From NCBI GenBank assembly GCA_964547985.1, contig CAZJPV010000005.1, forward strand, positions 7,755 through 71,754: a stretch of DNA of 64,000 bases, given 5' to 3'. The notes beneath the pieces are model-generated. The model was not told where the DNA came from. It did not search any database and saw nothing but the letters and a program-made list of their open reading frames with translations. Source of the stretch: an uncultured Syntrophaceae bacterium (GTDB taxonomy: Bacteria; Desulfobacterota; Syntrophia; Syntrophales; UBA2192). This document shows, piece by piece, positions 15,497 to 47,452 of the stretch (the stretch's first letter is position 1; each line of letters starts with the position of its first letter). Both the position numbers and the translations under genes were made by a program.

Positions 15497-15574
15497 AGCT
15501 GCTTGTGAATGTTATTGGTAGATAGGCAGGCTGACTGAGTACGTCTGATGGAAACCAGGGAAAGGAGGTATTCA

Positions 15575-16009
15575 ATGTTTCATAGAGGAAGCAACAACAT
15601 TTTATTCGCATTAGCTGTCATTGCCGGGGTTCTTCTCATGAATGCCTGTGCGGCAATGAACCAGCAGACAAACAAAGGAGATACCACCATGGAAGCTGTC
15701 CGAATTTCGCCGCAGGATACTTATCAGCAGGTGACATCAGGAAGAGCTATATTAGTCTGTTCCTATGATAAGAAAACATGCAGCAAGATGATGTTAGAGG
15801 GTGCCATTACGCGTGAAGAGTTTCAGTCGAAACTGCCCAGTATTTCCAAGAGCCAGCCAATTATTTTTTATTGTGCCTGACACGAGGAACACACCTCTGC
15901 CGGTCAGGCAGTGAAATATACGAAAATGGGATATACCAATGTTAAGGCGCTGCACGGCGGCGTTGAGGCTTGGAAAAAGGCAGGGTATAAACTTGTAGGC
16001 GATAAATAA
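15575..16009 (+). CDS. Single-domain rhodanese lipoprotein with an in-frame TGA (15878-15880) in the catalytic loop; candidate selenoprotein
   Basis: AGGAGG lies 7 nt before ATG 15575, and the lipobox is VLLMNAC. The track ORF stops at IIFYCA-TGA. The same frame continues HEEHTSAGQAVKYTKMGYTNVKALHGGVEAWKKAGYKLVGDK-TAA (16007-16009). That stretch is the conserved C-terminal part of a rhodanese domain, and a terminator follows. Confidence 0.7.
15897..15911 (+). promoter_or_regulatory. SECIS-like hairpin downstream of the rhodanese TGA
   Basis: CTGCC GGTCA GGCAG: perfect 5-bp stem with loop GGUCA. The loop starts 21 nt after the TGA. Confidence 0.45.
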
Positions 16010-21242: not shown

Positions 21243-21310
21243 CCTCCAAGAAACAATTTATCTATATCATTGACATCTTAGCCACAATTTATTATCGATC
21301 AGTGTCTGAT
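21243..21310 (+). repeat. Copy 2 of the promoter-like direct repeat, immediately upstream of the CoA-transferase operon
   Basis: See copy 1. TTGACA sits at 21270-21275. Confidence 0.75.
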
Positions 21311-21351
21311 CAGGCAATAGTGCAATGAAAGTAAATGTGAGGTCGATACCT

Positions 21352-22206
21352 ATGAAAGAGAAACTAATGACGGCAATCGAAGCGGCGCGTTTCGTTGAAA
21401 ACGGGAGTCACCTGGGTGTCGGTGCCGGTATGGCGATGAACCCCATGCCCGTCGTGAGGGAGGTCATTAAAAGGGATGTCAGGGGACTTACACTGACCCC
21501 CGTCGTCACCGGGGGCTATGTGGCGGATCTTCTCATTGGTGCCGGATGCGTTGAGACGGTCCAGTTTCCCCAGATTGTCATGGATGAGTTCGGTCTTGCG
21601 CCCAAGTTCAGAAAAAAGGCGGAAAAGGGCGAGCTCAAGTACCTGGAAACCATGTGAGCCTCCCTCCTCCTCGGGCTCCAGGCTGGGGCCTACAATCTCC
21701 CCTTCATTCCCGTCCTTGGCCTTCTGGGGACGGACTACATGAAAATACGGCCTGACCTCAAGACAATGAAAGACCCCTATTCAGGCCATGAATACGTTGT
21801 GATTCCCCCGATTATTCCCGACGTGGCCATTATCCATGCCACAAAGGGAGACCGCTTCGGGGGTGTCACGACCTTCAGTATGCGAAATGACTTGCTCCTG
21901 GCCCGGGCCGCAAAGAAAACCATTGCCGTCATCGAGGAACTTCTCGAGCCGGATGAGGTCCTGCCGGCACGTAACGAGGTCTATATTGCCCCCGTTCATG
22001 TCGATGCCGTCGTGCTTGCACCGCGGGGCGCGCATCCCACGGGTTGTCCCGGAAAATACGACGTTGACGGGGCCCACATCAAAGCGTACATGGCGGCGGC
22101 AAAGGATGACAAGTCTTTCAGGCAATACCTGGACACCTATATCTACGGGCCGAAGGACCATAACGATTATCTCAAGAAAGTGGGGTTGGGAGATTATGGA
22201 AAATAA
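21352..22206 (+). CDS. Family-I CoA-transferase subunit A (glutaconate-CoA-transferase GctA-like) with an in-frame TGA at 21655-21657
   Basis: Track ORFs 21325..21657 and 21739..22206 are in the same frame, separated only by one TGA. Read-through gives ...GELKYLETM-x-ASLLLGLQAGAYNLPFIPVLGLLGTDYMKIRPDLK.... This stretch is contiguous with the recalled GctA pattern (LGLPFLPV; DAVVLAPxGAHP later). Confidence 0.7.
21673..21691 (+). promoter_or_regulatory. Hairpin downstream of the CoA-transferase TGA (weaker SECIS candidate)
   Basis: GGGCUCC AGGCU GGGGCCU: 7 pairs including two G-U, with loop AGGCU starting 22 nt after the TGA. Confidence 0.3.
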
Positions 22207-22933
22207 GGCGACGGATCCTGTCGTGAGAATGATAGTGGCCATTTCGAAGATTCTCAAGAATGGCGAGTGGGTTGCCGCGGGGACGCTCTCCCCGATTCCG
22301 GTGGCAGGCTGTATCCTGGCGAAACACACCCATGCGCCGGACATCACGTCCATTTTTTTCGGTGACCCGGCCGACCGAATGGGGGATGGCCTCTTTGAGC
22401 TCTTCGGGCTCGTCCAGAAGGGAAAGATTGACGTTTTCTTCCTTTCCGGGGCGCAGATCGATCAGCAGGGGAACATCAACCTGATCTGCATCGGGGATTA
22501 TATGAAGCCGAAGGTCAGGCTTCCAGGGGGCGCGGCCTCCAACATGCTCTACGCCATGAGCAGGCGGACCATTCTCTTCACCACCACCCACACCAGGAAT
22601 CTTTTCGTTCAAAAGGCCGATTTTGTGAACGCAACCGCCTTCGATGGCGCGGTCAAGACACCCTGGAGGCGTGGGGGGTTGAGCCATGTGGTCACTCCGC
22701 TTGGCATCATGAGGTTCGACACCCAGATAAATAAAATCGTCCTGGACTCCGTCTTTCCCGGCATCTCTGTTGACACCGCCGTGGAGAACACGGGATTCGA
22801 CCTGGGCATAGGAAAGAGAACCATCCCGACCATCGAGCCGGTGCGTGAGGAAGAATTGAGGATTCTCAAAGAGGTTGTGGCTAAAGAGATGAGGGCTATT
22901 TACCCTGTCTTTACTGAAAAGCTCTGGGGCTAA
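22196..22933 (+). CDS. Family-I CoA-transferase subunit B (GctB-like)
   Basis: MENKATDPVVRMIVAISKILKNGEWVAAGTLSPIPVAGC...GGAASN. It overlaps the end of subunit A by 11 nt. The first 120 codons of track ORF 21836..22933 are an out-of-frame shadow of subunit A. Confidence 0.85.
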   Translation: MENKATDPVVRMIVAISKILKNGEWVAAGTLSPIPVAGCILAKHTHAPDITSIFFGDPADRMGDGLFELFGLVQKGKIDVFFLSGAQIDQQGNINLICIGDYMKPKVRLPGGAASNMLYAMSRRTILFTTTHTRNLFVQKADFVNATAFDGAVKTPWRRGGLSHVVTPLGIMRFDTQINKIVLDSVFPGISVDTAVENTGFDLGIGKRTIPTIEPVREEELRILKEVVAKEMRAIYPVFTEKLWG

Positions 22934-22977: not shown

Positions 22978-24117
22978 ATGGATTTCAAATTAACGGAGGA
23001 GCAGGAACTCATCCGCAAGAATATGCGGGAGTTTGCCATGAAGCACGTCGATCCCATCGCGGCGGAGATCGATGAAAATGAGCGCCACCCCACGGAGGTT
23101 TTCGAGAAACTGGCTGAAGGGGGCTGGATGGGCATCCCCATCCCGCAGAAGTACGGCGGCGCCGGTTCGGATTTCCTGACGCACATCGTCGCCGTGGAAG
23201 AGCTCTGCAGGGTCTGCGCCTCCACGGGGCTGACCATGTCGTTCCAGTCCGGCATCCTGGGCACGCTGATCAAGGATTTCGGAACCGAAGCGCAGAGGCA
23301 AAAGTATGTGGTTCCCATAGCCCGCGGGCAGCACCTCGGGGCATTCTGTCTGACGGAGCCGGGCGCCGGCACCGACATGATGGCGGCGACGACCACCGCC
23401 GTCCGGGAGGGCGACCATTATGTCCTCAACGGCACGAAAACATACATCAGCAACGGCCCACTGGCGGACATGTACCTCGTCTTCTGCTGGACGGACAAAA
23501 AGGCGGGAAGAAAAGGGATGAGCGCGTTCATCGTCCCCAAAGGTAACCCGGGGCTCAAGCCGGGCGTGCATTTCAGGAAGATGGGTCTGAGGTCCTCCCA
23601 GACATCGGAGGTTTTCTTCAAGGACTGCCGCGTCCCCGCAGAAAGCCTGCTCGGGGAAGAGGGCAGGGGCATTGCCATGGCCATGACCGGGCTCGATCAC
23701 GCCAGGGTCGGCGCGGCCGCAGTGTGCGTCGGAATTCTTCAGGCGGCCCTCGATGAATCCATCAGGTATTCCAAAGAGAGGGTCCAGTTCGGCAGCCCCA
23801 TCTCGAAGCAACAGGCCATTGCCTGGATGATCGCCGACATGGCTACGGATTTAAATGCCGCAAGGTTTCTCACCTACCATGCCGCCTGGCTGAAGGACCA
23901 GAAAAAACCTTTCACCACCGAGTCCGCCATGGCCAAGCTCTTTGGCTCGGAAAAGGCCATGTATCATACCACCAAGGCGGTCCAGATCCACGGTGGGTAT
24001 GGTTATGTCAAGGGCGCGAAGGTGGAACGGCTGATGCGTGACGCCAAGGTCACCGAAATCTTTGACGGCACATCGGAAGCCCAGCGGATGGTGATCTCCT
24101 TTAATGTTCTCCGCTGA
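22978..24117 (+). CDS. Acyl-CoA dehydrogenase (short/medium-chain type)
   Basis: Full-length ACAD pattern (MDFKLTEEQELIR..., CLTEPGAGTD, GGYGY, RDAKVTEIFDGTSEAQR). Asp sits where the YEGT Glu is usually found. Confidence 0.92.
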   Translation: MDFKLTEEQELIRKNMREFAMKHVDPIAAEIDENERHPTEVFEKLAEGGWMGIPIPQKYGGAGSDFLTHIVAVEELCRVCASTGLTMSFQSGILGTLIKDFGTEAQRQKYVVPIARGQHLGAFCLTEPGAGTDMMAATTTAVREGDHYVLNGTKTYISNGPLADMYLVFCWTDKKAGRKGMSAFIVPKGNPGLKPGVHFRKMGLRSSQTSEVFFKDCRVPAESLLGEEGRGIAMAMTGLDHARVGAAAVCVGILQAALDESIRYSKERVQFGSPISKQQAIAWMIADMATDLNAARFLTYHAAWLKDQKKPFTTESAMAKLFGSEKAMYHTTKAVQIHGGYGYVKGAKVERLMRDAKVTEIFDGTSEAQRMVISFNVLR

Positions 24118-24963: not shown

Positions 24964-25275
24964 ATGACGAACTCGAAACTGGATAAACCAACGATCGGTT
25001 TCGGCCTTTCCGTGGCCGTGGTGAGCATTCTCAATACGCTGCTGGTCATCTTCAAGGAACTGACGCCAACCTTCAAGAAGGCTATGGCCGATGCAACGGG
25101 GCATCACTGGACAACCCATGGAGTGATCGTCATCGGGCTGTTCATCGTGCTGGGCTTCGTCTTCTCCAGCATGGCCAAGCCCGAGTCCTGGGGTGCAGAC
25201 AAGCTGGGAAAAGCAATCCTCTGGTCCGTCATCATTGGGGGTGGCGCCCTTGCGGCCTTCTACATGCTTCACTGA
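24964..25275 (+). CDS. Small membrane protein, hypothetical
   Basis: 103 aa with three hydrophobic helices, lying 5 nt after the previous gene. Confidence 0.55.
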   Translation: MTNSKLDKPTIGFGLSVAVVSILNTLLVIFKELTPTFKKAMADATGHHWTTHGVIVIGLFIVLGFVFSSMAKPESWGADKLGKAILWSVIIGGGALAAFYMLH

Positions 25276-25863
25276 TCCGCAAGAAAAAGGCATGCCACTT
25301 CATTGAATGTCACCGATGCGACAGTTGCCGCTTCTTCGAACGAAGAGGTTGTCTATAAATGGCGGGAGGATTATGATGCTAAGGTTCATATTCTCGATCC
25401 TCGTCTCATCGATCATCACCACGCCTGTCGTCTTTGTCCCTGTGCCAATCATTACCAATCCTCAGGATGGTCCAATGATGAAATCGATCATCGCACGACC
25501 GGATAAATGAATAACCCGCTATAATCATCAAGCCTGAAATATGGTGTTAAAAATTATCTTTCCGATATCCCGGTCAATCGCTACCTGTAATTCTGAAAGG
25601 AGATTCAGGAGGTCGAAGTGTATACCTGCCCCATGCATCCCTGGCAAAACCCATCCTTTTCCTGACGGCCGTCTAAGGTATTTACACTGTTTTAATCAGT
25701 CTTTTTATGATTGTCATTTTTTTGCCAGCAGATAAATATAATAATTGAAAAAGCGGAATGAACCCGGAGGCGATTCGCAAACTCTTTGCGAGGCCGATTC
25801 ATGAGGCAGACCTCGAGGGTTTAGCCGGGGGAGTTGATTCGAATACCAGGGGAGGTTGATCTT

Positions 25864-37980: not shown

Positions 37981-38442
37981 TTATGCGTTGCGGAGCAGGT
38001 AGATCTCCCGCCTGCACGACGGGCACGTTTCGAGCGCCGTCAGGACGTTTGCCGGCTCTGTCTGGAGCCTTCCGAAGACAAATTCCTCCACGGGCACGGC
38101 CACAAAGAACCGGCCGCAGGCCTCGCAGCGCTTGGCGTTTTCGACCACGTTTTCCCCGATGGCCGCCTCGCGGAGCTTGCGGATCAAGTCCCGGCAGCTC
38201 ACCCCCTGGGGGCAGACGTCGGTGCCGCTGTTGCACTCCGTGCAGTACCAGATGTTTTTGTCCTCGACGATGTTTTCGCCCGTGAGCGTCTTCTTGATAA
38301 TGCCCCGGGGCGACATCTCGATGCCGAAATTCACATACATCTCCGCCATGGGACAGGCGGCGACACAGCGGCCGCACTCGACACAGCCTAGGGCCCCTGA
38401 AACTTGCTTCGCTTCCTCGATCTTATCGTGCCGTCGCTTCAT
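37981..38442 (-). CDS. Small Fe-S protein, HdrC-like, with a C-terminal Cys-pair ribbon
   Basis: CVECGRCVAACP and CTECNSGTDVCP, followed by CEACG...CPSC. Confidence 0.6.
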   Translation of the reverse strand: MKRRHDKIEEAKQVSGALGCVECGRCVAACPMAEMYVNFGIEMSPRGIIKKTLTGENIVEDKNIWYCTECNSGTDVCPQGVSCRDLIRKLREAAIGENVVENAKRCEACGRFFVAVPVEEFVFGRLQTEPANVLTALETCPSCRREIYLLRNA

Positions 38443-40474
38443 AGCGCTCCTTTTCCACGCTTACGGCGCAGACCTTGTATTCGGGAGTCTTGCAGGCCGG
38501 GTCGAGCACCGGGTTCGTGAGCCTGTTGGCCCTCGCCTCGGTGAAGTGGAAGGGGGCGAAGATGCTCCCCTTTGCCACGCGATCGGTGATCTTGGCCGTC
38601 GTCACGATGCTCCCCCGCCGGGAGCTGACTCGAATCCTCTCCCCCTCGCGGATGCCGAGCGCGGCGGCATCGGTGGGGTGGATCTCCACGTAGGCCCACT
38701 CGATCTCGCGGTTGAGAAAGGGCGAACGCCGCGACATGGTCCCCGTGTGGTAATGGGCGAAGACGCGCCCCGTGTTGAGATAGTAAGGGTACTCCGAGTC
38801 GGGCTTTTCCGCAGGCGGCCTGTAGTCGGGGATGACGAACCGGCCCAGCCCGCGGGTGAACTTCTCGCCGTGCAGAAAGCGCGTCCCCGGGTGGTTTTCA
38901 TCGGGGCAGGGCCACTGCAGTCCTACGCGCTCCAGGCGGTCGAAGCTCACCCCGGCGTACGCCGGGACGAGATGGGCATATTCCGACATCACATCGGCGG
39001 GCGAAGGGTAGTCGAAGGCGAGTCCCAGGGCCTTCCCCAGGAGGCAGAGGATCTCGAAGTCGCCCTTCGCGGCTCCGGGCGGGTCGATGGCCTTGTGAAG
39101 GAGCTGGAAGCGCCTCTCCGTGTTTGTGTAAGTCCCGGTCTTTTCGGCAAAGCAGGCTCCCGGTAGGACCAGGTGCGCGAATCTCGCCGTTTCCGTCAGG
39201 AAGATGTCCTGGACGACCAGGAAATCGAGCCTCTGAAGGGCCTCCATGACGTGGTTCACGTCGGGGTCGCTCAAGCAGGGGTTTTCGGCCATGATGTACA
39301 GGGCCCGGATGTCCTTTCCCGCGGTATTGATGAGCTCCGTCACGGTGAGCCCCGGTTTGTCAGAGAGATCTGTTTTCCAGGCCTTCTGAAACTTCTCCCT
39401 TACGGCGGGGTCGGACACGCCCTGGTAGCCGGGGTAGAGGTCCGGCAGGGCCCCCATGTCGCAGGCGCCCTGAACGTTGTTCTGTCCGCGAAGCGGGTAG
39501 ATTCCCGAGAAATGCTTTCCCACATGGCCGCAAAGCATAGCCAGATCGCAGATGGCGATCACGTTGGCCGCCCCGCAGGCGTGCTGGGTAATGCCCATGC
39601 AGTAGACGATGGCAGCGTTTTTAGCCTTCGCGTAGGTCTCGGCCACCGCGCGGATGACCGATTCGTCGATGCCTGTTTCCTTCGCGGCCTTCTCCACGGG
39701 CCATGCCTCGAGGAAGGTCTTTAGGTTCTCGAAGTTTTCCGTCCGCTTCTCGATGAAGCCGACATTGTGGAGCCCTTTGTCGCTGATGTGGCGCATCATT
39801 CCCGCCAGAAGCGGGATATCGGTTCCAGGGTTCAGCCTCAGCAGCCTGTGGGCGTTTCGGGCCACCGCTGTTTCCCGGGGGTCGATAACGAACATCTTCG
39901 CTCCCCGGTCGAGGGCCTTGTAGACCTCGCCCATGAGAACGGGGTGAGTCTCGGCGGCGTTGGAGCCTACAAAAACGATGCAGTCGGCGCCGGCAAGATC
40001 AGAGATGGAGTTGGTCATGGCGCCGCTGCCCAGCGTCTGGAGCATGCCCACCGTGGTTGCCGCGTGACAGAGCCTGGCGCAGTGGTCCACGTTGTTGGTC
40101 TTGAAGGCCGCCCGGATGAGCTTCTGGAAGAGGTAGTTCTCCTCGTTGGTGCACTTGGCCGAGGAGAGCCCGCCCACGCTGTCAGGGCCGTATTCCCCGG
40201 CCGTCTCACTAAGCTTCTGCGCCGCAAGGTCGATGGCCTCCTCCCAGGAGATGGCCTCGAAACGGTCACCCTTGCGCAGAAGCGGCGCCGTCAAGCGCTC
40301 GGGGTGATGGACGAACTCGTGGGCGAACCACCCCTTCACGCAAAGGGATCCCCGGTTCACGGGGTTCTCCCGGTCGGGGTAGGTGGCCGTGGCGCGGCCC
40401 TCCTCCACCTTGAGGATGAGCCCGCATCCCGTGCCGCAGTAAGGGCAGATGGTTCGGATAAACTCAGGTTTCAT
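38423..40474 (-). CDS. fdhA: Formate-dehydrogenase-type Mo/W-bis-PGD catalytic subunit, Cys variant
   Basis: N-terminal [4Fe-4S] motif CPYCGTGC...C. Active-site stretch NNVDHCARLCHAATTVG...GSGAMTNS has Cys where FdhF has Sec. 683 aa, uninterrupted. Confidence 0.88.
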   Translation of the reverse strand: MKPEFIRTICPYCGTGCGLILKVEEGRATATYPDRENPVNRGSLCVKGWFAHEFVHHPERLTAPLLRKGDRFEAISWEEAIDLAAQKLSETAGEYGPDSVGGLSSAKCTNEENYLFQKLIRAAFKTNNVDHCARLCHAATTVGMLQTLGSGAMTNSISDLAGADCIVFVGSNAAETHPVLMGEVYKALDRGAKMFVIDPRETAVARNAHRLLRLNPGTDIPLLAGMMRHISDKGLHNVGFIEKRTENFENLKTFLEAWPVEKAAKETGIDESVIRAVAETYAKAKNAAIVYCMGITQHACGAANVIAICDLAMLCGHVGKHFSGIYPLRGQNNVQGACDMGALPDLYPGYQGVSDPAVREKFQKAWKTDLSDKPGLTVTELINTAGKDIRALYIMAENPCLSDPDVNHVMEALQRLDFLVVQDIFLTETARFAHLVLPGACFAEKTGTYTNTERRFQLLHKAIDPPGAAKGDFEILCLLGKALGLAFDYPSPADVMSEYAHLVPAYAGVSFDRLERVGLQWPCPDENHPGTRFLHGEKFTRGLGRFVIPDYRPPAEKPDSEYPYYLNTGRVFAHYHTGTMSRRSPFLNREIEWAYVEIHPTDAAALGIREGERIRVSSRRGSIVTTAKITDRVAKGSIFAPFHFTEARANRLTNPVLDPACKTPEYKVCAVSVEKERYEATAR

Positions 40475-41316
40475 GGCTTCTTTTCCGTGCTGTCGACCCA
40501 GTCGGGCATGTCCTGCCCGGGGCGGGGCTCCTTGATGAAGTCAGAGAGGACGGGGGATTTACGATCCGCGTCGATCCCTGCCTCATAGTTGTAATCCCTC
40601 TTCAGGGCTTCCCGCATCGATAGCTGGAGCGTCATGAGGGGGATGCCTACCGGGCAGGCCTCCTGACAGGCCCCGCAGGCCACACAGGTATCGGAGAGGT
40701 GAAAAGCCCGGATGAGATGGAAGGTGGTCATTTCTGCCGGGACGACGCCGCGCTCGACCCAGACTTCGTCCTCGAGCTTGCAGGGTACGCAGACGCAGAT
40801 GGGGCAGGAATTGCGGCAGCCGTAACACTTGATGCAGCGCCTGAGCTGTTCGGCCCACTTCTCCATGCGTGTGCGGGCATCGCCCTCCAGGTAGGACTTC
40901 ACCCGCTCGTCGGTCAGGGGATCCACGCCCTCCACGGCGCTCCCCGCGTCGAGCTTCTGAGGGTAGGGACGGTTGCAGAGGCATGCCTTCGCCTGGGCGG
41001 AGTCGCAGGCGTAGCCGAGGGTGAGGAGCCTCTCGCGGTCGACCTGGTTTCGCTTGACGAGCTCCACGACGGCCCTCTCGTCGCATCCCCGCATGACGAC
41101 AACCAGCCGCCAGGGCTGCGGCCTCTCCAGCAGGACCGCCCGGGCCATCTTGGCGAGCAGCCACTTGGGCTCGAGCACGAGCTTGTCGATCTCCGCCGGA
41201 GCCGTAAAGACGTGTGGCTGAATCACATCCCAGTAGCCCTTTTTGAGTGCTAGAACGCCGTCGGCTTGCTTCCTCTCGAGGAGCTCTCTCGCTCTCTGTC
41301 TTACCTGTTCCAGCAT
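40471..41316 (-). CDS. Fe-S cluster protein (AsrA/sulfhydrogenase-beta-like Cys pattern)
   Basis: CIKCYGCRNSCPICVCVPC and CVACGACQEACP. The stop overlaps the fdhA start (4 nt). Confidence 0.6.
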   Translation of the reverse strand: MLEQVRQRARELLERKQADGVLALKKGYWDVIQPHVFTAPAEIDKLVLEPKWLLAKMARAVLLERPQPWRLVVVMRGCDERAVVELVKRNQVDRERLLTLGYACDSAQAKACLCNRPYPQKLDAGSAVEGVDPLTDERVKSYLEGDARTRMEKWAEQLRRCIKCYGCRNSCPICVCVPCKLEDEVWVERGVVPAEMTTFHLIRAFHLSDTCVACGACQEACPVGIPLMTLQLSMREALKRDYNYEAGIDADRKSPVLSDFIKEPRPGQDMPDWVDSTEKKP

Positions 41317-41357
41317 CTTTTTTTTCTTTTCACCGGCCGCCCGTCACTTATCACGAG

Positions 41358-41786
41358 TCACTGTTTTACGGGCACCCATGCCCCCATCGAGGGCAGGCCC
41401 TCGAGCTCCCTGTAAAAGCCCAAAATCGTTTCCACGTACTGGTGCCACTCGTGGGTCGTGCCGAAGCCCAGCAGCAGCCGGTTCCCGCCGATGCCCGTCG
41501 TGTCGAGGAGCGTCTTGAGAAGCTCCAGACGCTTGAGGGCAGGGTGGTTGGCGTCGTTGAAGCGGCACCCGCCGACGTGGCAGCCCAGGACGGCCACCCC
41601 CGTTACCCCACTGGCGAAGGCCCGTATCACCAGGTCGGGTTCGACGTAACCCGCGCACTCCACCGGGATCACCCGGAAAGATACAGGCAGCTCGATACGC
41701 TGTCGCCCGGCGGCGTCTGCCCCGAAGAGGCCGCACCAGCGGCATGCGAAGACGAGGATTTTCACGTTGTTTGAATCGGCGGACAT
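41358..41786 (-). CDS. mvhD: MvhD-like (methyl-viologen-reducing hydrogenase delta subunit family) protein
   Basis: ILVFACRWCGLFGADAAG ... VIPVECAGYVEPDLVIRAF ... GVAVLGCHVGGC matches the FlpD/MvhD pattern. Confidence 0.85.
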   Translation of the reverse strand: MSADSNNVKILVFACRWCGLFGADAAGRQRIELPVSFRVIPVECAGYVEPDLVIRAFASGVTGVAVLGCHVGGCRFNDANHPALKRLELLKTLLDTTGIGGNRLLLGFGTTHEWHQYVETILGFYRELEGLPSMGAWVPVKQ

Positions 41787-41787
41787 G

Positions 41788-43494
41788 TCAGCGTACCTCC
41801 CGGAAGGCCCGCCGTATCATCTGGCAGACGGCCCGGTCATTGAGCTCGGGCATCTGCATGGCCCCGTTCGGGCAGACGGAGACGCAATTGCCGCAAGCCT
41901 TGCAGCGGATCTTGATGACACGGCTCACGGAACGATTTCCCATGCGTTGGAGCCTGCAGGCCCCGTAAGGGCATACGGCCATACAGTTGCCGCATCCCGT
42001 GCAGGCATCTGAGTTTACGCTTGCGTGGCCAACCTTCTGGTCCGGCATGCGGCTCATCGCGAGGGCCGAGACCATTTTCTTCCCGAGGAAGGAGGCCGCC
42101 TTCATGGCCGCCGCTTCGCCCTGGGCGATGGCCTGGTCCGACGAGACGGGCCAGCGGGCCGTCCCGCAGATGAAAATACCGTCATTTAGCGTCTCCACGG
42201 GATGGTTGGGGTAGACCTCTGCGAAGAACCCGTATTTGTCCACGGGGATCTCGAGCATGCGGGCGAGCGCCGCGCTCTCCGGGTCGGCAATGAGGGGCGT
42301 GCTGAGGACGACAAGGTCCGTTTCAATGGTCCGGGTCACTCCCGAGATGGCGTCGAAGACCTGGACCTCGCCGACCTGTCCTTCACCGAGCACCCCGGGC
42401 GGCCGCGCGGCATCGAAACGGATGAACTGGACGCCCTTCTCAAGTGCCTTCCGATAATACGCCTCCAGAATGCTGCCCGGCGTCATGATGTCGCGGTGCA
42501 GGACATAGGCCTTCGCGCCCGGAATCTCGTCGATGATCCGCATGGCGTTCTTGAGGGACAGGGGACAGCAGATCGTGGAACAGTAGGGCCGATCAATATT
42601 TCGCGCGCCAACGCACTGGATGAAGACGGCCGTCCGGCAGGCGGGTTTCCCCGTCGAGAACTGCCTCTCCATCTCCATCTGGGTGATCACGTTTTTGAGC
42701 TTCCCGTAACCATGCAGCCCCTGGGGGAAAAGGATTCGTGCCCCCGTTGCCAGAACGATGGCGCCGACGCGCAGACCGGTTTTTCCTTCGGGACCTGCCA
42801 GGGTGACCTTGAAATCGCCGGCCTGGCCTTTGACGGAAACAACCCTTGTCTTCCCGTAGAAGCTGATATGGTGGTTTCTGCTGACCTCTTCGAGCCGCAG
42901 ACCGATCTTCTCAGAGCCGGATTCTCCGCCGGGATAGGCCTGCGATATGATGTTGAGAAGTCCGCCGGGAGCTGATCCCCTCTCGACGAGGTGGACCCGG
43001 AACCCGAGTCTGGCCAATCCGCAGGCGGCCGAGAGGCCGGCAGGCCCTGCGCCGATCACCAGGGTTTCCTGCTGCAGCCGGACGGTGATGTCTTTCGAAT
43101 CCTGCATGTTCTGAAGCAGCGCGAGCTCCATGTCGAGCTGGCTTGCGGCTTTACGGAAAGCGCCCTCCGGGTCCTTGCGGTGAATCCAGGCGCAACCTTC
43201 CCGCAGATCTACTGTGCGCACATGCCGGAGCTCGGCGCCTTTTTTTACGAGTCCAAGCCGGACGAATTCCATTCTGCCGTATGGGGAGCAGGCGCCGATA
43301 AGGACCTTGCCGATCCCGCGATCGTGAATGGCGGAAAGGGCCCGTTCAACGTCGGAAGCAAGGCATAGGGATTCCGTGATCGTTACGCCATCCACGGCAG
43401 GATCGGCATTGAACCTCTTCCGGATGGACTCCAGATCGATGACCTTACCGATCTCACCGAAGCAGTCGCAGAGAAAGACGGTGACTTTGGGCAT
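41788..43494 (-). CDS. hdrA: HdrA-like flavoprotein 2 (N-terminal Cys-rich domain, FAD domain, C-terminal 2x[4Fe-4S])
   Basis: VIGAGPAGLSAA, FIQCVGARN...YCSTICC, CTGCGNCMAVCP and CKACGNCVSVCP. Confidence 0.85.
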   Translation of the reverse strand: MPKVTVFLCDCFGEIGKVIDLESIRKRFNADPAVDGVTITESLCLASDVERALSAIHDRGIGKVLIGACSPYGRMEFVRLGLVKKGAELRHVRTVDLREGCAWIHRKDPEGAFRKAASQLDMELALLQNMQDSKDITVRLQQETLVIGAGPAGLSAACGLARLGFRVHLVERGSAPGGLLNIISQAYPGGESGSEKIGLRLEEVSRNHHISFYGKTRVVSVKGQAGDFKVTLAGPEGKTGLRVGAIVLATGARILFPQGLHGYGKLKNVITQMEMERQFSTGKPACRTAVFIQCVGARNIDRPYCSTICCPLSLKNAMRIIDEIPGAKAYVLHRDIMTPGSILEAYYRKALEKGVQFIRFDAARPPGVLGEGQVGEVQVFDAISGVTRTIETDLVVLSTPLIADPESAALARMLEIPVDKYGFFAEVYPNHPVETLNDGIFICGTARWPVSSDQAIAQGEAAAMKAASFLGKKMVSALAMSRMPDQKVGHASVNSDACTGCGNCMAVCPYGACRLQRMGNRSVSRVIKIRCKACGNCVSVCPNGAMQMPELNDRAVCQMIRRAFREVR

Positions 43495-43498
43495 TGCC

Positions 43499-44713
43499 TT
43501 ATTTCTTCCCTTCCATGATCGAACGGAGCGCGGCCGAGGAGGCGTGAACCGCCGACTCCGTCACATGCGCTGGTGTCATGATGTGGCCGTAGGACTCGAA
43601 TAAACGTGTGACTCGACCTTCCGTCGCCAGTGTGGGGACGGCGTAACCCCGGGGCAGGGCGGGGATGGTCGGCTGCAGATTGCCGTTGAGAATGACCATG
43701 TCGAACTTCCAGATCTCGCGTGTCTGTGTCAGGGTGTCCTCGAATTTCACGGCGATGCCGTCACTGCCGGGCAGGGGATAGATGAGAGAAGGCCGCCCCC
43801 GGACAGCCCGTACACCTTTTCCTTCGATAGCGCGGATTGCGTACCCGTAGTAATCCCGACCGACGGTACGAAGGTCCGTGTAGAGAATGACGCAGTCGAT
43901 GGCAGGGTTTCTGCGCCTGACCCACTGGGCCTGCTTGAGGGCATGCATGCAACAAACAGCCGAACAGTGGGGCAGGAACTTCAGGTCGCGGGCACCGGCG
44001 CACTGGATGAATGCGATATTCCGGGGCACGGCCTTGTTTGAGTGCCTGAGGATGGTTCCCCTGTTTTCGCCCGCCTCAGCCTTCCAGGCCTCGAATTCAA
44101 GCGAGGTCATGATGTCCGGGTGGGTCCCCCAACCATACTCCTTCAGGGGTTCGAGGCTCACCTCGGAGAATCCCGCAGACCATATGACTTCGTCAACCGG
44201 GACCTGGAACCGCGCTTCTTCTCGATCGAAGTCGATGGCCTTCGTGGGGCACACATCCGCGCAGGAGCGACAGTCTCCGCAGCGATCCCGGTCGATGATG
44301 TAGAACGGAGGATAAGCGTGCTCCCAGATCGGCCGGGCGGCCCCCCGCGGACAGGCGTCTTTGCAGCGGCCGCAAAAGATGCATAGCTCGGGGTCGATCA
44401 CTGGTGCTAATTTCAAGATGACGGCTTGGAAGACGTGATGGTTTTTTTCCAGTGATTCCACTCTTGCGAGCGTGTGAACAAAAATGGAGGGGTTTTCCTT
44501 GCAGCGGCGGATCTCCGCCCAGAGGGTGCAAAAAGCGCAGTGGTCCGTTGGATAGTACTTGTCAAGTCTTGCCACAATCCCTCCAAGGTCGAATCCGTTA
44601 TCGACGAGATGGACGTGTTGACCTGCAGCAGCTAAATCAAGGGCTGCCGAGATACCGGAGATACCGCCGCCCATGACGAGAATCGTTCTCTTTTTCGTTT
44701 CCGTTTTTTGCAT
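43499..44713 (-). CDS. hdrA: HdrA-like flavoprotein 1 (FAD domain with inserted ferredoxin domain)
   Basis: VMGGGISGISAALDLA, YPTDHCAFC, CIFCGRCKDACP, CGDCRSCADVCP and FIQCAGARD...HCSAVCC. Confidence 0.85.
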   Translation of the reverse strand: MQKTETKKRTILVMGGGISGISAALDLAAAGQHVHLVDNGFDLGGIVARLDKYYPTDHCAFCTLWAEIRRCKENPSIFVHTLARVESLEKNHHVFQAVILKLAPVIDPELCIFCGRCKDACPRGAARPIWEHAYPPFYIIDRDRCGDCRSCADVCPTKAIDFDREEARFQVPVDEVIWSAGFSEVSLEPLKEYGWGTHPDIMTSLEFEAWKAEAGENRGTILRHSNKAVPRNIAFIQCAGARDLKFLPHCSAVCCMHALKQAQWVRRRNPAIDCVILYTDLRTVGRDYYGYAIRAIEGKGVRAVRGRPSLIYPLPGSDGIAVKFEDTLTQTREIWKFDMVILNGNLQPTIPALPRGYAVPTLATEGRVTRLFESYGHIMTPAHVTESAVHASSAALRSIMEGKK

Positions 44714-44765
44714 ATCCTTAAATTTGGATCCGATACCCTGAACCTTTGACCCTGTCCCCTTTTCT

Positions 44766-45467
44766 TTATTCTTCCTCGTCTTCCTTGATCAACCCGTAAT
44801 GCTCCCCCAGCTTCCTCACGCGCCCCTCGAGCCAGTCCATAAAGCCCTCGTCGCGCCCGTGACGGCGCCCATCTTCCTCCTCGAGGCGCATGGCGACGCG
44901 CTTCTCGGGGGGAGGCATCCTTTTGACCTTCTCGTAGACCGTGACGATGGACTTGGGCTTCGTGGGGCATCGCCTCTCGCAGGCATTGCAGCCCGTGCAG
45001 GGGCCCTCGAGGACCACGGGGTATTTGTCCTTCTCGAGCACGATAGCGTCGTAGCGGCAGGCATCGTAACAACGGGTGCAGTCTTCCTGACCCGTCCAGG
45101 CGAGGCAGGTATTGCGGTTGATGAGGGCATTGCCGATGTCGACCTCATCGCGGGAGATCTTTGCGATGGCCCCCGTCGGACATTCCTTGATGCAGGCCAT
45201 GCAGAAGATGCACTTCTTGTGCTCGAGGATAGGGGTGCCGAAGCAGGTGATCCCGCCGGCGAGTCCCGCCGGGTGGATGGCGTCGACAGGGCAGACATCC
45301 ACGCATCGGTAGCAGCGGGCGCAGGTTGCGAGAAAGGATTTTTCCTCGAGGGATCCTGGCGGGCGCGGGATCTCTCTGGCCCCGCTGACCTTAAAGAGGC
45401 CGAACAGGAGGGTCGAGACGGCTCCGCTGACGAGAAGATGGATCGTGTCCCTTCGTGAAAAGTCCAT
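44766..45467 (-). CDS. NapG/MauM-like periplasmic polyferredoxin with a twin-arginine-type N-terminus
   Basis: MDFSRRDTIHLL plus an h-region, then RPPGSLEEKSFLATCARCYRCVDVCP (the NapG signature RPPGA..E..F...C.RC). Three further Cys clusters follow. Confidence 0.75.
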   Translation of the reverse strand: MDFSRRDTIHLLVSGAVSTLLFGLFKVSGAREIPRPPGSLEEKSFLATCARCYRCVDVCPVDAIHPAGLAGGITCFGTPILEHKKCIFCMACIKECPTGAIAKISRDEVDIGNALINRNTCLAWTGQEDCTRCYDACRYDAIVLEKDKYPVVLEGPCTGCNACERRCPTKPKSIVTVYEKVKRMPPPEKRVAMRLEEEDGRRHGRDEGFMDWLEGRVRKLGEHYGLIKEDEEE

Positions 45468-45616
45468 GAGTGCAGGTATCCCCTGATCGTTCCAGGTTCC
45501 GTATCAACGACCCCTCTCCCCCTCGGTTACGGACCGATGTGAGCATACAAAAAGAACCCATAAAATGCAAGGGCGGGTGAAAAGAATCACCCGCCCCTAC
45601 ATAAAGCATCCAACGG

Positions 45617-47452
45617 TTAGAGGTTGTGTTTCTTCCTGGCCGCGTTGACGTCGGCAATCAGGTAATCGAGACCGCAGGCCTTGAGGGTGGCCTCCGTCGG
45701 GATGCCCTTGGCGTCCCAGCCGAAGAATCCGTATGTGTCGGCTTCCATCTTCTTCTGATCTTCGTCGGTGAAGACGGCGTTCTTTTTTGGTCCTGCGGGC
45801 AGCTTCTCCGCGTACATGCGTTTCGGCAGCCGGTCATCCTTGGAGCTGACGCCCTCGCGGACGTTGAAGACGCGCTCTGCTGTGATGATCCGCTTGGCCG
45901 TCGTCCAGTAGTCCTCCGGTTTCATGGCCCAGCCGCACAGCGGGTTGAGCATGTCGGTGACGATCTTGTCCGAACCGGCGCCCCAGACGAGAATCGAGGT
46001 AAAGGTGCACATGCAGAGCGAGTCGGCCATCGCCGTCATGGCCAGTGCCTTGGAGCCCTGTCCTTCGTGGTGATCGCCGCCGTTCGTGCCCATCGTGTAG
46101 CTGTAGGCACGGATCTTGTCGCCCCGCGGATCGTGGGCCGCCAGTTCCCGGCCCTTTACGACGTTGGCATAGGCCTCGGAGCCCTTGCCGATCTGTTTGG
46201 ACATCTTGGCCACGCCCTGGGCCATGAACTTTCCAGCCTTGCCTTCCTTGTGGGCGATCCTGCGTATCATCTCCATGTAGGTGTCGCCGTCACCCCACTT
46301 GGGTTTCAGGCCGTCGAGGTCCGCAGGCTTCAGGGCACCCTTCTCTAAAGCTTCTGTCACGAAGGCCAGGGTGCCTCCCGTGGAGATGTTGTCGAGACCG
46401 TAGGCGTCGCAGGCCTCGATGAGGGCGATCATCTGGCCGAAGTCCTTCATGCCCAGGTTGGAACCCATGAGCCCGCCGGACTCATACTCGGGTCCCTCGG
46501 CGACGAGACCCTTGTACTTCCCGTCGCGAAGGACGCCCAGCTTCAGACAGTGGGTCGGGCAGTTGGTGCAGGCCGCGTGGCGCTTCCAGAATCTCCGGGC
46601 CGCTTCCTCGCCACCGATATTGACGATGTCGGGGTACCAGGTGGTCTGGAAGTTCTTCGTGATGAGCGAGCCGTGGAGGAAGTGCTTGAGTTCCAGGAGG
46701 CCGCCCGTTCCCCAGCGCTTGATGCCTTCCCAGGCTTCTTTCTGTACGTTGGTTGTCTTGGCGGTTCTAGCGGCTGTGAGGAAATTCGCGCTGTCCACGA
46801 CGGGGACGGCGTACTTGGTGCCCCGCACGGCGAAGCCTTTCAACTTCTTGTTTCCGAACACCGGGCCGACGTTGCTGCGCGACGCGGCGCGGTAACGCTC
46901 GACGATGATGTTGGCCTGAAGCGCCCCGTTCTCGCCGGCCGGGCCGATGACAGCCGTCCGGATGAGAGGATCCTTCATGTCACTGATCATCATCGCATGG
47001 GCTTCTTCGGTGGTCTTGCCCCACATCTTCGAGGCGTCCTTGAACTCTACCTTGTCGTTGACGACGGAAAACCACACGGGCTTCTTTGCGCGGCCCTTGA
47101 TGTAGATGCCGTCCCAGCCGGCCCACTTGATCTCTCCCGCGAGGTGGGCTCCCGTCTCAGCGTGGCTCAAAAGACCCGTGAGGGGGTTCTTGTTGACGAA
47201 GCATGTCCTGTAAGAGACGGACATGGTCCCGGACAGGGGCCCCGGCCCCACGAAGACGAAGGCGTCCTCATCTAAGGGATTCTTGCCGGCCTTGTATTCC
47301 GTCACGGCGTAGTAGGCGCCCAAGCCTCTTCCACCGATGTACTGCTGGAGAATTTCTTCGGAAACCGGCCGTGTCTTGTAGGTCAGTGTGCTGAGGTCGA
47401 TTTCCAGTACCTTTCCGAAATTTCCGCCTTTGGGTGCTGCCATAGTGATCAC
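45617..47452 (-). CDS. aor: Tungsten-type aldehyde:ferredoxin oxidoreductase family enzyme (611 aa), no signal peptide of its own
   Basis: GKVLEIDLST..., YIGGRGLGAYY, GPGPLSGT, ACTNCPTHC and the full-length AOR domain order. Confidence 0.9.
   Translation of the reverse strand: MITMAAPKGGNFGKVLEIDLSTLTYKTRPVSEEILQQYIGGRGLGAYYAVTEYKAGKNPLDEDAFVFVGPGPLSGTMSVSYRTCFVNKNPLTGLLSHAETGAHLAGEIKWAGWDGIYIKGRAKKPVWFSVVNDKVEFKDASKMWGKTTEEAHAMMISDMKDPLIRTAVIGPAGENGALQANIIVERYRAASRSNVGPVFGNKKLKGFAVRGTKYAVPVVDSANFLTAARTAKTTNVQKEAWEGIKRWGTGGLLELKHFLHGSLITKNFQTTWYPDIVNIGGEEAARRFWKRHAACTNCPTHCLKLGVLRDGKYKGLVAEGPEYESGGLMGSNLGMKDFGQMIALIEACDAYGLDNISTGGTLAFVTEALEKGALKPADLDGLKPKWGDGDTYMEMIRRIAHKEGKAGKFMAQGVAKMSKQIGKGSEAYANVVKGRELAAHDPRGDKIRAYSYTMGTNGGDHHEGQGSKALAMTAMADSLCMCTFTSILVWGAGSDKIVTDMLNPLCGWAMKPEDYWTTAKRIITAERVFNVREGVSSKDDRLPKRMYAEKLPAGPKKNAVFTDEDQKKMEADTYGFFGWDAKGIPTEATLKACGLDYLIADVNAARKKHNL

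What the first reader, a model, noticed from the sequence alone, without database searches (positions are those of the whole stretch)
21352..22206. In-frame TGA inside a GctA-like CoA-transferase alpha subunit
What the sequence shows:
- Track ORFs 21325..21657 and 21739..22206 share one frame and are separated by a single TGA (21655-21657).
- The 27 intervening codons (ASLLLGLQAGAYNLPFIPVLGLLGTDY) have G/C at position 3 in 22 of 27 by my count.
- They continue the family-I CoA-transferase subunit-A sequence without a break. Compare recalled Acidaminococcus GctA ...AAALGLPFLPV... and later DAVVLAPYGAHP, against DAVVLAPRGAHP here.

So this is one gene of about 284 codons carrying an internal TGA.

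A hairpin follows at 21673-21691, with loop AGGCU starting 22 nt after the TGA. It needs two G-U pairs and differs from the other two candidate elements.

In my by-memory alignment the TGA column corresponds to the Gln of the PQGT/SQD region in characterised enzymes, not to a Cys. That weakens the Sec interpretation.
Basis: partly seen in the sequence, partly recalled or inferred. Interest (0 to 1): 0.6.

Follow-up and report, generated by a model that had tools for sequence, protein, structure and literature searches.

The report
Selenocysteine codon in CoA-transferase-like enzyme
The in-frame TGA is almost certainly a conserved selenocysteine codon, with its own RNA hairpin, in a CoA-transferase-fold enzyme of Syntrophales bacteria; this selenoprotein family is absent from every published catalogue I could search, and the selenium sits where a related ring-cleaving enzyme (IpdAB) has a conserved glutamate.

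Summary
Window 21352..22206 (+) is one 284-codon gene with a single in-frame TGA at 21655-21657 (codon 102), and the Pfam CoA_trans domain runs across it.

The TGA is not an error or a pseudogene lesion.
- It sits at the same codon in 89 of 93 related loci, including all 29 full-length GTDB species genomes found; the other four carry TGT or TGC.
- Two independent assemblies carry the identical gene.
- dN/dS is 0.0-0.23 on both sides of the TGA.
- More distant full-length homologs have Cys (28), Glu (13) or Gly (8) at this column.

The hairpin at 21673-21691 is under RNA-level selection. Its codons are almost frozen at synonymous sites, and one pair covaries G-C/A-U with no unpaired case.

In IpdA it is the Glu that PDB entry 6COJ replaces with Ala. 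The partner beta subunit lacks the catalytic Glu of class-I CoA-transferases.

Best reading: a selenoprotein family absent from the catalogues I searched, probably an IpdAB/AibAB-like acyl-CoA-transforming enzyme rather than a transferase. The Sec call is strong; the chemistry is inferred.

The parts
21352..22206 (+). Alpha-subunit gene of a CoA-transferase-fold enzyme. It has 284 codons plus a TAA stop, with selenocysteine predicted at codon 102.
   Evidence: Translation. Pfam PF01144 covers aa 6-221 across the TGA. PDB hits are GctA, IpdA and AibA. dN/dS is 0.0-0.23 on both sides of the TGA.
21339..21342 (+). GAGG Shine-Dalgarno-like motif 9 nt upstream of the ATG at 21352.
   Evidence: Read directly from the sequence. 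The homologs start at the equivalent MK(D/E)KLMTA.
21655..21657 (+). In-frame UGA, predicted selenocysteine codon (U102).
   Evidence: TGA in 89 of 93 related loci, TGT or TGC in the other four. Cys in the full-length homologs. The gene is identical in independent assemblies L105 and L106.
21673..21691 (+). SECIS-like hairpin. The stem is 21673-21679 paired with 21685-21691; the loop AGGCU is 21680-21684.
   Evidence: Synonymous-codon entropy is 0-0.11 bit in codons 109-111 and 113, against a mean of 1.57 bit elsewhere. 93.4% of cells are paired, against 27-60% when the partner is slid. The pair at alignment columns 27:41 is GC 30, AU 22, GU 4, unpaired 0. RNAalifold finds the same helix.
22196..22933 (+). 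Beta-subunit gene, overlapping the alpha gene by 11 nt. It lacks the catalytic glutamate of class-I CoA-transferases.
   Evidence: Pfam PF01144. The position of GctB Glu54 and IpdB Gly57 (7 residues after the conserved Pro) is Phe/Tyr55 in 61 distinct sequences. A canonical paralog in L001 has 'LTEAG' at that spot.
22978..24117 (+). Acyl-CoA dehydrogenase gene directly downstream. It is an operon neighbour here but not in most related loci.
   Evidence: All three Pfam Acyl-CoA_dh domains match. All NCBIfam hits are below their cut-offs. An acyl-CoA dehydrogenase is a neighbour in 7 of 75 loci.

Best explanation
The TGA at 21655-21657 is a selenocysteine codon. The hairpin 16 nt downstream (21673-21691) is the bacterial SECIS element that would recruit SelB with Sec-tRNA, so that a full-length alpha subunit of about 31 kDa is made with Sec at residue 102.

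What is shown:
- The TGA is conserved.
- Homologs carry Cys at the same column.
- The hairpin is under RNA-level constraint.
- Both halves of the gene are under purifying selection.

What is inferred:
- The alpha/beta pair has the class-I CoA-transferase fold, but the beta subunit has lost the catalytic glutamate.
- The Sec/Cys column of the alpha subunit is the active-site column that holds Gln or Asn in true transferases and Glu in IpdA. PDB entry 6COJ replaces that IpdA Glu with Ala. From memory of Crowe et al. 2018 it is Glu105, the catalytic base of the ring-cleaving hydrolase.
- I therefore read the enzyme as an IpdAB/AibAB-like acyl-CoA-transforming enzyme (hydrolase, lyase, decarboxylase or isomerase) rather than a CoA-transferase. 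The selenolate would act as the catalytic nucleophile or proton shuttle next to the substrate thioester.
- The substrate would be supplied by separately encoded CoA-activating enzymes. It is unknown.
For: Sec decoding:
- All 29 full-length GTDB species genomes found carry TGA at codon 102, at 60-88% amino-acid identity.
- With the metagenome loci the count is 89 TGA against 4 Cys codons.
- A second clade at about 48% identity (L107) also has TGA at codon 102, followed by a hairpin with compensating changes.
- About 69 of the 120 best protein clusters are C-terminal fragments starting just after this column (my count from the table). That is what gene callers produce when they stop at a TGA.
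- Cys forms are nested among Sec forms; L039 (Cys) is 83% identical to L085 (Sec).
- In 69 distinct Sec-type genes, Leu109 is CTC in 68 of 69, Gln110 is CAG in 69 of 69, Ala111 is GCT in 68 of 69, and Val113 is GTC in 35 of 35. Fifty other conserved 4- or 6-fold degenerate codons average 1.57 bit, with a minimum of 0.70.
- Two of three distinct Cys homologs encode the same L-Q-A-G with other codons.
- The helix covaries.
- dN/dS is 0.0-0.23 on both sides of the TGA, including the 27 codons before the next ATG.
- TGA is an ordinary stop for 10 of 28 long ORFs in the window, so there is no genome-wide reassignment.
- A second in-frame TGA in the window lies in a rhodanese-like ORF whose best NCBIfam hit is the 'rhodanese_LYCAU (seleno)protein' family.
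- Syntrophus aciditrophicus is listed with 19 selenoproteins (PMC1794560).
- Independent assemblies carry the identical gene.

Function:
- U102 aligns with Gln in GctA, Gly in AibA and Glu in both IpdA structures. Entry 6coj has Ala at that position.
- 13 of 49 full-length homologs have Glu at this column and 8 have Gly.
- The beta subunit has Phe or Tyr where GctB has Glu54. A canonical paralog pair in the same genome as L001 has the beta Glu and an alpha Asn.
- IpdAB also lacks the beta Glu and shows no CoA-transfer activity (PMC5380842). In AibAB the beta Glu is replaced by Cys and the enzyme is a decarboxylase (PMC7756340).
- Neighbouring genes repeatedly include separate CoA-activating enzymes: an AMP-forming ligase, an ADP-forming acyl-CoA synthetase and a class-III CoA-transferase.
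Against: - There is no direct evidence of selenium incorporation.
- No tRNA-Sec or selA/B/D gene lies in the window, and I could not examine the rest of the genome.
- Folded alone, the hairpin is no more stable than shuffled sequence (z from +0.7 to -1.4), and in some homologs the minimum-energy fold differs.
- No Rfam family matches the region.
- Part of the hairpin's conservation follows from the conserved peptide LGLQAG.
- Only three distinct Cys-type DNA sequences were available as a contrast, and one of them (L038) keeps the hairpin core.
- On function: there is no redox motif (CxxU or UxxC) and no experimental homolog carrying Cys at this column.
- Gene neighbourhoods are not conserved; the commonest neighbour, a Metallophos protein, is present in only 22 of 75 loci.
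- Asp57 of the beta subunit is conserved within the Syntrophales clade and cannot be fully excluded as an acyl acceptor, although it is Gln or Asn in the Paenibacillus and L107 homologs.
- The role of IpdA Glu105 is taken from my memory of Crowe et al. 2018, which the tools could not open.
Confidence: 0.8

Rival explanations
1. The enzyme is a genuine CoA-transferase. Sec (or Cys in relatives) has taken over the covalent role of the missing beta-subunit glutamate, for example through an acyl-selenoester or CoA-linked intermediate. The UGA is still read as Sec.
For: The best PDB match is glutaconate CoA-transferase. The Sec column lies among the residues that surround bound CoA in SCOT (Gln99, PMC12817287); the correspondence of Gln99 to this column rests on my by-hand motif alignment, not on a tool result. 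An acyl-CoA dehydrogenase follows the genes in this window.
Against: No class-I CoA-transferase is known to use anything but the beta Glu. The two characterised relatives that lack it, IpdAB and AibAB, are not transferases. Many loci encode separate CoA-activating enzymes next to the pair. A thiol or selenol cannot form the glutamyl-CoA thioester intermediate of the ping-pong mechanism.
Confidence: 0.12
2. The TGA is a true stop. The locus encodes two separate polypeptides, of 101 aa and about 180 aa, that assemble into a split alpha subunit. The downstream hairpin would serve re-initiation or mRNA stability.
For: Public gene callers annotate it this way everywhere. CTG and TTG codons occur shortly after the TGA in many homologs.
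Against: No start codon or ribosome-binding site is conserved after the TGA; in the window the next ATG is 27 codons away. Those 27 codons are under strong purifying selection (dN/dS 0.0-0.23) and continue the fold without a break. Close relatives have Cys at exactly this codon in an unbroken gene. A stop alternating only with Cys is the signature of Sec, not of a gene split.
Confidence: 0.04
3. The TGA is a recent nonsense mutation, a pseudogene lesion or a sequencing error.
For: None beyond the presence of a stop codon inside a domain.
Against: The TGA is at the same codon in 89 loci at 55-95% identity from many samples and species, plus L107 at about 48%. The sequence is identical in independent assemblies. 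Both halves are under purifying selection.
Confidence: 0.01
4. The UGA is read through by a near-cognate or suppressor tRNA (for example Trp or Cys insertion) rather than by the Sec machinery.
For: Sec incorporation has not been shown, and no Sec machinery is visible in the window.
Against: The hairpin has the position and the G-containing apical loop expected of a bacterial SECIS, by my knowledge of the bSECISearch model, and it is under synonymous-site selection. The lineage is rich in selenoproteins. A second candidate from a known Sec family lies in the same window. TGA is used as a normal stop elsewhere in the window.
Confidence: 0.03

Closest known systems
IpdAB (COCHEA-CoA hydrolase of steroid ring C/D catabolism; PDB 6CO6, 6CO9, 6COJ, 6CON)
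   Same: It is an alpha/beta heteromer with the class-I CoA-transferase fold (E 1e-26 alone, 8e-55 with a profile). The beta subunit lacks the catalytic Glu (for IpdAB; here). The conserved special residue lies in the alpha subunit at the very column of U102, with identical spacing to the LPF motif.
   Different: IpdA has Glu at that column where this family has Sec or Cys. Identity is only about 25-30%. The organisms are anaerobic Syntrophales, not actinobacteria, and no steroid-catabolism neighbours (ipdC, echA20, fadA6) were seen. The substrate here is unknown.
AibA/AibB 3-methylglutaconyl-CoA decarboxylase (PDB 5MZW-5N03)
   Same: It has the CoA-transferase fold and is not a transferase. 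A thiol replaces a canonical catalytic residue. The alpha subunit matches at E 3e-24 alone and 1e-55 with a profile.
   Different: In AibAB the Cys sits in the beta subunit at the Glu54 position, and the alpha column is Gly. Here the beta position is Phe or Tyr, and the thiol or selenol is in the alpha subunit.
Glutaconate CoA-transferase GctAB (PDB 1POI) and other class-I CoA-transferases (SCOT, AtoDA)
   Same: GctA is the best overall sequence match (E 5e-30 alone, 9e-68 with a profile). The two-subunit gene order with overlapping genes is the same.
   Different: The catalytic beta Glu is absent. The alpha active-site amide (Gln in GctA, Asn in the canonical L001 paralog) is replaced by Sec.
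Computationally defined bacterial selenoprotein families with Sec/Cys pairs and a bSECIS (119 families and subfamilies in the 2026 review PMC13188914)
   Same: The hallmarks match: a conserved in-frame UGA, Cys homologs, a stem-loop just downstream, and a Sec-rich deltaproteobacterial host.
   Different: No CoA-transferase or PF01144 family appears in the 2006, 2007, 2022, 2025 and 2026 lists I could search, and no dedicated NCBIfam model hits it. There is no thioredoxin fold and no UxxC or CxxU motif. The position is that of an acid/base or nucleophilic catalytic residue rather than an obvious redox site.

Membership tests
Bacterial selenoprotein gene (UGA-Sec with SECIS) | The in-frame UGA is conserved at the same codon in orthologs. 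| tested here: met
   89 of 93 loci, all 29 full-length species genomes found, and a second clade at about 48% identity.
Bacterial selenoprotein gene (UGA-Sec with SECIS) | Homologs carry Cys at the UGA column. | tested here: met
   TGT or TGC in L038, L039, L040 and L041. Cys in P0001-P0004 and in 28 of 49 full-length homologs. Cys forms are nested among Sec forms.
Bacterial selenoprotein gene (UGA-Sec with SECIS) | A stem-loop lies immediately downstream of the UGA, with a G-containing apical loop about 16-37 nt away (bSECISearch model, from my own knowledge). | tested here: met
   The loop AGGCU starts 22 nt after the UGA. Synonymous sites are frozen and the helix covaries. Caveat: single-sequence stability is not above shuffles and there is no Rfam hit.
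Bacterial selenoprotein gene (UGA-Sec with SECIS) | selA, selB, selC (tRNA-Sec) and selD are present in the same genome. | not testable with these tools
   There is no tRNA in the 64-kb window, and the rest of the genome is not available. The support is indirect: a rhodanese 'LYCAU'-type candidate in the window and a Sec-rich lineage.
Bacterial selenoprotein gene (UGA-Sec with SECIS) | Selenium is incorporated into the protein. | not testable with these tools
   This needs 75Se labelling or mass spectrometry.
Class-I CoA-transferase (catalytically active) | Alpha and beta subunits have the PF01144 fold. | tested here: met
   Pfam E 5e-22 (alpha) and 3e-18 (beta). PDB matches to GctA and GctB.
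Class-I CoA-transferase (catalytically active) | The beta subunit has the catalytic glutamate (ESG or SENG motif; GctB Glu54). | tested here: not met
   The position 7 residues after the conserved Pro is Phe or Tyr in 61 distinct beta sequences, and Leu in the Paenibacillus and L107 relatives. The canonical paralog in L001 has LTEAG there.
Class-I CoA-transferase (catalytically active) | CoA-transfer activity. | not testable with these tools
   This needs an enzyme assay.
IpdAB-type ring-cleaving hydrolase | CoA-transferase fold without the beta Glu. | tested here: met
   for IpdAB itself.
IpdAB-type ring-cleaving hydrolase | A conserved Glu in the alpha subunit (Glu105). | tested here: not met
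   The same column holds Sec here and Cys in close relatives. Glu occurs only in 13 more distant homologs.
IpdAB-type ring-cleaving hydrolase | Steroid ring C/D catabolic gene context (ipdC, echA20, fadA6, KstR2 regulon). | tested here: not met
   The neighbours are an acyl-CoA dehydrogenase, Metallophos, acyl-CoA synthetases, Amidohydro_2 and DUF169-CoaE.
AibAB-type decarboxylase | Cys at the beta-subunit Glu54 position. | tested here: not met
   Phe or Tyr at that position.

The most novel reading that the evidence does not exclude
This would be the first selenoenzyme of the CoA-transferase fold. Its selenolate would perform non-redox covalent or acid/base catalysis on an acyl-CoA, in the role that IpdAB gives to a glutamate. 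Examples are Michael addition to, or proton transfer on, an enoyl- or beta-keto-acyl-CoA during ring opening, decarboxylation or isomerisation. It would act in the anaerobic metabolism of Syntrophales, which degrade aromatic compounds and fatty acids, and it would be kept as Sec in more than 95% of the members of its clade.
Probability: 0.35. Interest if true: 0.8.

Novelty: new member of a known kind. Interest (0 to 1): 0.62.

Why it matters
Nearly all known bacterial selenoproteins are redox proteins, and many have thioredoxin-like folds. This family would add a different enzyme scaffold to the selenoproteome.

The Sec lies at a position whose importance is marked by a solved relative: the IpdA Glu that PDB entry 6COJ replaces with Ala. 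That gives a concrete, testable hypothesis for what selenium does in the enzyme.

There is also a practical consequence. This gene is split into two 'hypothetical' or 'glutaconate CoA-transferase subunit A' fragments in every public annotation I saw. Metabolic reconstructions of syntrophic Syntrophales therefore miss an intact and apparently strongly selected enzyme.

Finally, the alpha/beta pattern of catalytic residues suggests that this fold has repeatedly been repurposed by moving the catalytic group between two neighbouring positions:
- Transferases: Gln or Asn in alpha, Glu in beta.
- IpdAB: Glu in alpha, Gly in beta.
- AibAB: Gly in alpha, Cys in beta.
- This family: Sec or Cys in alpha, an aromatic residue in beta.

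Tried and rejected
- Rfam, at gathering thresholds on the whole window and permissively on 21600-21800, gave no SECIS or other credible family.
- Single-sequence folding did not separate the hairpin from shuffles. I therefore rest the SECIS argument on comparative data only.
- ARAGORN found no tRNA or tRNA-Sec in the window.
- A mechanical scan for other TGA-split ORFs gave 72 mostly spurious candidates. The apparent TGA-joined HdrA-like ORFs at 40471-43494 (-) are just adjacent genes; the middle segment is non-coding in that frame, and an MvhD-like gene lies in another frame.
- The promoter and terminator scan near the operon found nothing above the shuffle expectation.
- Literature searches for a Sec-containing CoA-transferase returned only irrelevant co-mentions.
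- Crowe et al. 2018 (IpdAB structure) and Haft & Tolstoy 2025 could not be opened. The role of Glu105 therefore rests on my memory plus the E-to-A difference between PDB entries 6CO6 and 6COJ.
- Gene-neighbourhood clustering did not yield a conserved operon that would reveal the substrate.
- The dN/dS value for the L006 C-terminal part is an indel register artefact and was ignored.
- I did not run structure prediction. The tool returns no coordinates, so it could not measure the distance from Sec to the active site.
Full report
**Observation.** Window 21352-22206 (+) translates as MKEKLMTA...LETM*ASLLLGLQAG...GDYGK*. That is 284 sense codons with one internal stop, TGA at 21655-21657, which is codon 102.
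- The two track ORFs 21325..21657 and 21739..22206 share a frame.
- The real start is the ATG at 21352. It has GAGG 9 nt upstream, and the homologs begin MKDKLMTA.
- A single Pfam CoA_trans domain (PF01144, aa 6-221, E 5e-22) spans the stop.
- The next gene (22196-22933, overlapping by 11 nt) is the matching beta subunit, and an acyl-CoA dehydrogenase follows (22978-24117).

**Is the TGA real and selected?** Yes.
- The identical gene, TGA included, occurs in independent assemblies from other samples. L105 (ENA) and L106 (JGI) have 0 mismatches in 855 nt.
- A scan of one genome per GTDB species found 29 full-length relatives at 60-88% identity. Nearly all are Syntrophales or 'Deltaproteobacteria' MAGs, and every one has TGA at codon 102.
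- Adding the metagenome loci and contig look-ups gives 89 TGA, 2 TGT and 2 TGC at that codon in 93 loci.
- About 69 of the 120 best protein clusters in the 5.8-billion-protein search are C-terminal fragments of roughly 180 aa that start just after this column (my count from the table). That is how gene callers treat a TGA-interrupted gene.
- A second, divergent clade at about 48% identity (L107) also has a 101-codon N-terminal part, then TGA, then PAIMSALQAG.
- dN/dS between the window and five relatives is 0.0-0.23 for codons 1-101, for the 27 codons between the TGA and the next ATG, and for the C-terminal part. The L006 C-terminal value is an indel artefact and is excluded. Both halves and the linker are therefore translated.
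- TGA ends 10 of 28 long ORFs in the window, so the code is not reassigned.

**Sec/Cys pairing.** The four full-length close homologs (P0001-P0004, 63-66% identity) have Cys at the column: ETGCPAF, ESICPAL, ETMCPAL.
- Among 49 full-length homologs at 34-67% identity the column is Cys in 28, Glu in 13 and Gly in 8, and never Gln.
- In a neighbour-joining tree the Cys forms are nested among the Sec forms. L039 (Cys) is 83% identical to L085 (Sec). The outgroups (Paenibacillus, Dehalococcoidia and others) are Cys.
- This is the usual pattern of a selenoprotein family with occasional Sec/Cys switches.

**SECIS.** In all Sec-type genes the sequence 16 nt after the TGA is GGR-CUC-C | AGGCU | GGR-GYC-C.
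- In 69 distinct Sec-type sequences the codons inside it are nearly frozen. Leu109 is CTC in 68 of 69, Gln110 is CAG in 69 of 69, Ala111 is GCT in 68 of 69, and Val113 is GTC in 35 of 35. Their synonymous entropy is 0-0.11 bit.
- Fifty other conserved 4- or 6-fold degenerate codons in the first 135 codons average 1.57 bit, with a minimum of 0.70.
- On 56 distinct 60-nt segments the 7-bp helix is paired in 93.4% of cells, against 27-60% when the 3' arm is slid by 1-3 columns. No shuffle out of 500 reaches the observed value.
- One pair switches G-C (30) / A-U (22) / G-U (4) with no unpaired case. It links a synonymous Gly site to a non-synonymous Ala/Val site.
- RNAalifold independently predicts the same helix.
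- L107 has CACUCC-AGGCG-GGAGUG at the same place, with a further C-G for G-C swap.
- Cys-type genes that encode the same L-Q-A-G use other codons and break the helix (L039 CTG CAG GCC; L041 TTG CAA GCG). L038 keeps the core and may be a recent Sec-to-Cys convert.
- Caveats: folded alone, the hairpin is no more stable than shuffles; Rfam has no match; and only three distinct Cys DNAs were available for contrast.

**Does the organism decode Sec?** The window holds no tRNA and I cannot see the rest of the genome.
- A second in-frame TGA (15878) lies in a rhodanese-like ORF with the motif FYCA-U. Its best NCBIfam hit is NF041203 'rhodanese_LYCAU, rhodanese-related (seleno)protein' (E 1.4e-17, below the cut-off).
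- Syntrophus aciditrophicus is listed with 19 selenoproteins (PMC1794560).

**What the residue is in structural terms.** The best PDB relatives of the alpha subunit are GctA (1poi_A), IpdA (6co6/6coj/6con) and AibA (5mzw). E-values are 5e-30 to 4e-22 with the single sequence and 9e-68 to 3e-52 with a profile.
- PDB 6coj differs from 6co6 by Glu-to-Ala at exactly this column. From my memory of Crowe et al. 2018 (PNAS 115:E3378; not readable here), this is Glu105. That paper proposes it as the catalytic base of the retro-Claisen ring-opening hydrolase IpdAB, and 6COJ is the E105A substrate complex.
- In SCOT, Gln99 is listed among the residues that surround bound CoA (PMC12817287). That Gln99 is the residue at this column rests on my by-hand motif alignment, not on a tool result.

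**The beta subunit.** In GctB the catalytic Glu54 lies 7 residues after the Pro of the HAPD motif. IpdB has Gly57 there (PMC5380842) and AibB has Cys56 (PMC7756340).
- In 61 distinct beta sequences of this family the position is Tyr or Phe (rarely His). In the Paenibacillus and L107 relatives it is Leu.
- A canonical CoA-transferase pair encoded just upstream in L001 serves as an internal control. Its beta has ...LTEAG... and its alpha has Asn at the Sec column.
- The defining catalytic residue of class-I CoA-transferases is therefore absent.
- Asp57 is conserved in the Syntrophales clade but is Gln or Asn in the more distant Cys and Sec relatives, so it is an unlikely substitute.

**Context.** Apart from the alpha/beta pair, the neighbours vary across the 75 loci with a distinct alpha protein:

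| Neighbour | Loci (of 75) |
|---|---|
| Metallophos protein | 22 |
| ADP-forming acyl-CoA synthetase | 10 |
| Acyl-CoA dehydrogenase | 7 |
| Amidohydro_2 | 7 |
| DUF169-CoaE | 6 |
| AMP-forming ligase | 4 |

- In the Cys-type loci of P0002 and P0003, an AMP-forming ligase directly precedes the pair.
- A class-III CoA-transferase lies near the pair in Paenibacillus, and a MaoC hydratase precedes the gene for P0010.
- This fits an enzyme that acts on a CoA ester made by another enzyme, but it does not identify the substrate.

**Interpretation.** Shown: a conserved Sec codon with a co-evolving downstream hairpin, in the alpha subunit of a CoA-transferase-fold heteromer whose beta subunit lacks the catalytic Glu. 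Inferred: the enzyme belongs functionally with the non-transferase members of the fold (IpdAB, AibAB), and the selenolate at the IpdA-Glu105 position is the catalytic nucleophile or proton shuttle.
[quoted passage not shown] The window also carries an AOR/HdrA/MvhD/FdhA-type cluster. The enzyme might handle alicyclic or enoyl-CoA intermediates of anaerobic aromatic or fatty-acid metabolism. I have no direct evidence for this.

**Rivals.**
- A true transferase with Sec as the covalent residue (0.12).
- A genuinely split gene (0.04).
- Non-Sec read-through (0.03).
- An error or pseudogene (0.01).

**Novelty.** None of the selenoproteome catalogues I could search mentions a CoA-transferase or PF01144 family.
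- These are the 2006 and 2007 lists, the 2022 review, deep-Sep 2025, the May 2026 review with 119 families and subfamilies, and the BSepDB main text.
- NCBIfam release 20 has no model for it.
- Public records split the gene into fragments named 'hypothetical protein' or 'glutaconate CoA-transferase subunit A'.
- I could not read Haft & Tolstoy 2025 or Deng et al. 2026, so a prior report cannot be excluded.
- I rate it as a new member of a known kind (bacterial selenoprotein families). It has an unusual feature: Sec at an acid/base or nucleophile position of a non-redox fold.

Noticed in passing
window 15548-16009 (+), TGA at 15878-15880: A rhodanese-like ORF with an N-terminal signal or membrane segment has an in-frame TGA in the motif IIFYCA-U-HEEH. 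The 42 residues after the TGA complete the rhodanese domain. Its best NCBIfam hit is NF041203 'rhodanese_LYCAU, rhodanese-related (seleno)protein' (E 1.4e-17, 63.5 bits, below the 115-bit cut-off). It is probably a second selenoprotein gene in this window.
   Followed up: partly
window 38423-48195 (-): A redox gene cluster: a Fer4 protein, an aldehyde:ferredoxin-oxidoreductase-family protein (611 aa), two Fe-S/FAD proteins, an HdrA-like protein (568 aa), an MvhD-like protein (142 aa, 'VFACRWCG', Cys not Sec), a 281-aa Fe-S protein, and an FdhA that passes TIGR01591 (836 bits) with no in-frame TGA. It resembles the class-II benzoyl-CoA-reductase (Bam) type and HdrA-Fdh electron-bifurcating modules. 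The apparent TGA-joined reading frame 40471-43494 is only a run of adjacent genes.
   Followed up: partly
L107 3845-4687 (JGI 3300035310, contig Ga0393740_002010): A second, divergent Sec-type clade (about 48% identity to the window protein) has TGA at codon 102 and a hairpin with compensating changes. Seven protein clusters of this type begin M(S/N/A)ALQAGVMNVPF. The locus also encodes a selenium-binding-protein-56 family gene (SBP56) and a MauG-like cytochrome c peroxidase nearby.
   Followed up: partly
L038 6304-6349 (ENA ERZ21831104): This Cys-type homolog (TGT) still carries the Sec-type hairpin core (CUCC AGGCU GGAG) with the same codons CTC CAG GCT. It may be a 'fossil' SECIS left by a recent Sec-to-Cys conversion.
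   Followed up: no
L001 2649-5509 (Syntrophaceae MAG GCA_013177825.1): Directly upstream of the Sec-type pair lie a canonical CoA-transferase pair (alpha 352 aa with Asn at the Sec column; beta 272 aa with the catalytic-Glu motif LTEAG) and an Amidohydro_2 gene, behind a sigma-54 PAS regulator. Amidohydro_2 recurs next to the Sec pair in 7 of 75 loci.
   Followed up: partly
window 24964-25506 (+), TGA at 25273: A 103-aa hydrophobic ORF is followed in frame, after a single TGA, by 76 more codons. Neither part matches a Pfam family. I cannot say whether this is a read-through candidate or chance.
   Followed up: no
window 21297-21311 (+): A perfect inverted repeat, GATCAG-TGT-CTGATC, lies in the 233-nt intergenic region upstream of the alpha-subunit gene, 40 nt before the ATG. 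It could be an operator. Its conservation in related loci was not examined.
   Followed up: no
related loci L002, L003, L005, L015 and others, immediately downstream of the beta gene: In 22 of 75 loci the alpha/beta pair is followed by a calcineurin-like phosphoesterase (Metallophos) of about 380 aa. In some it is followed further by a TAT-signal DUF362 protein and a Fer4_5 polyferredoxin. This is an unexplained recurrent association for an acyl-CoA enzyme.
   Followed up: partly
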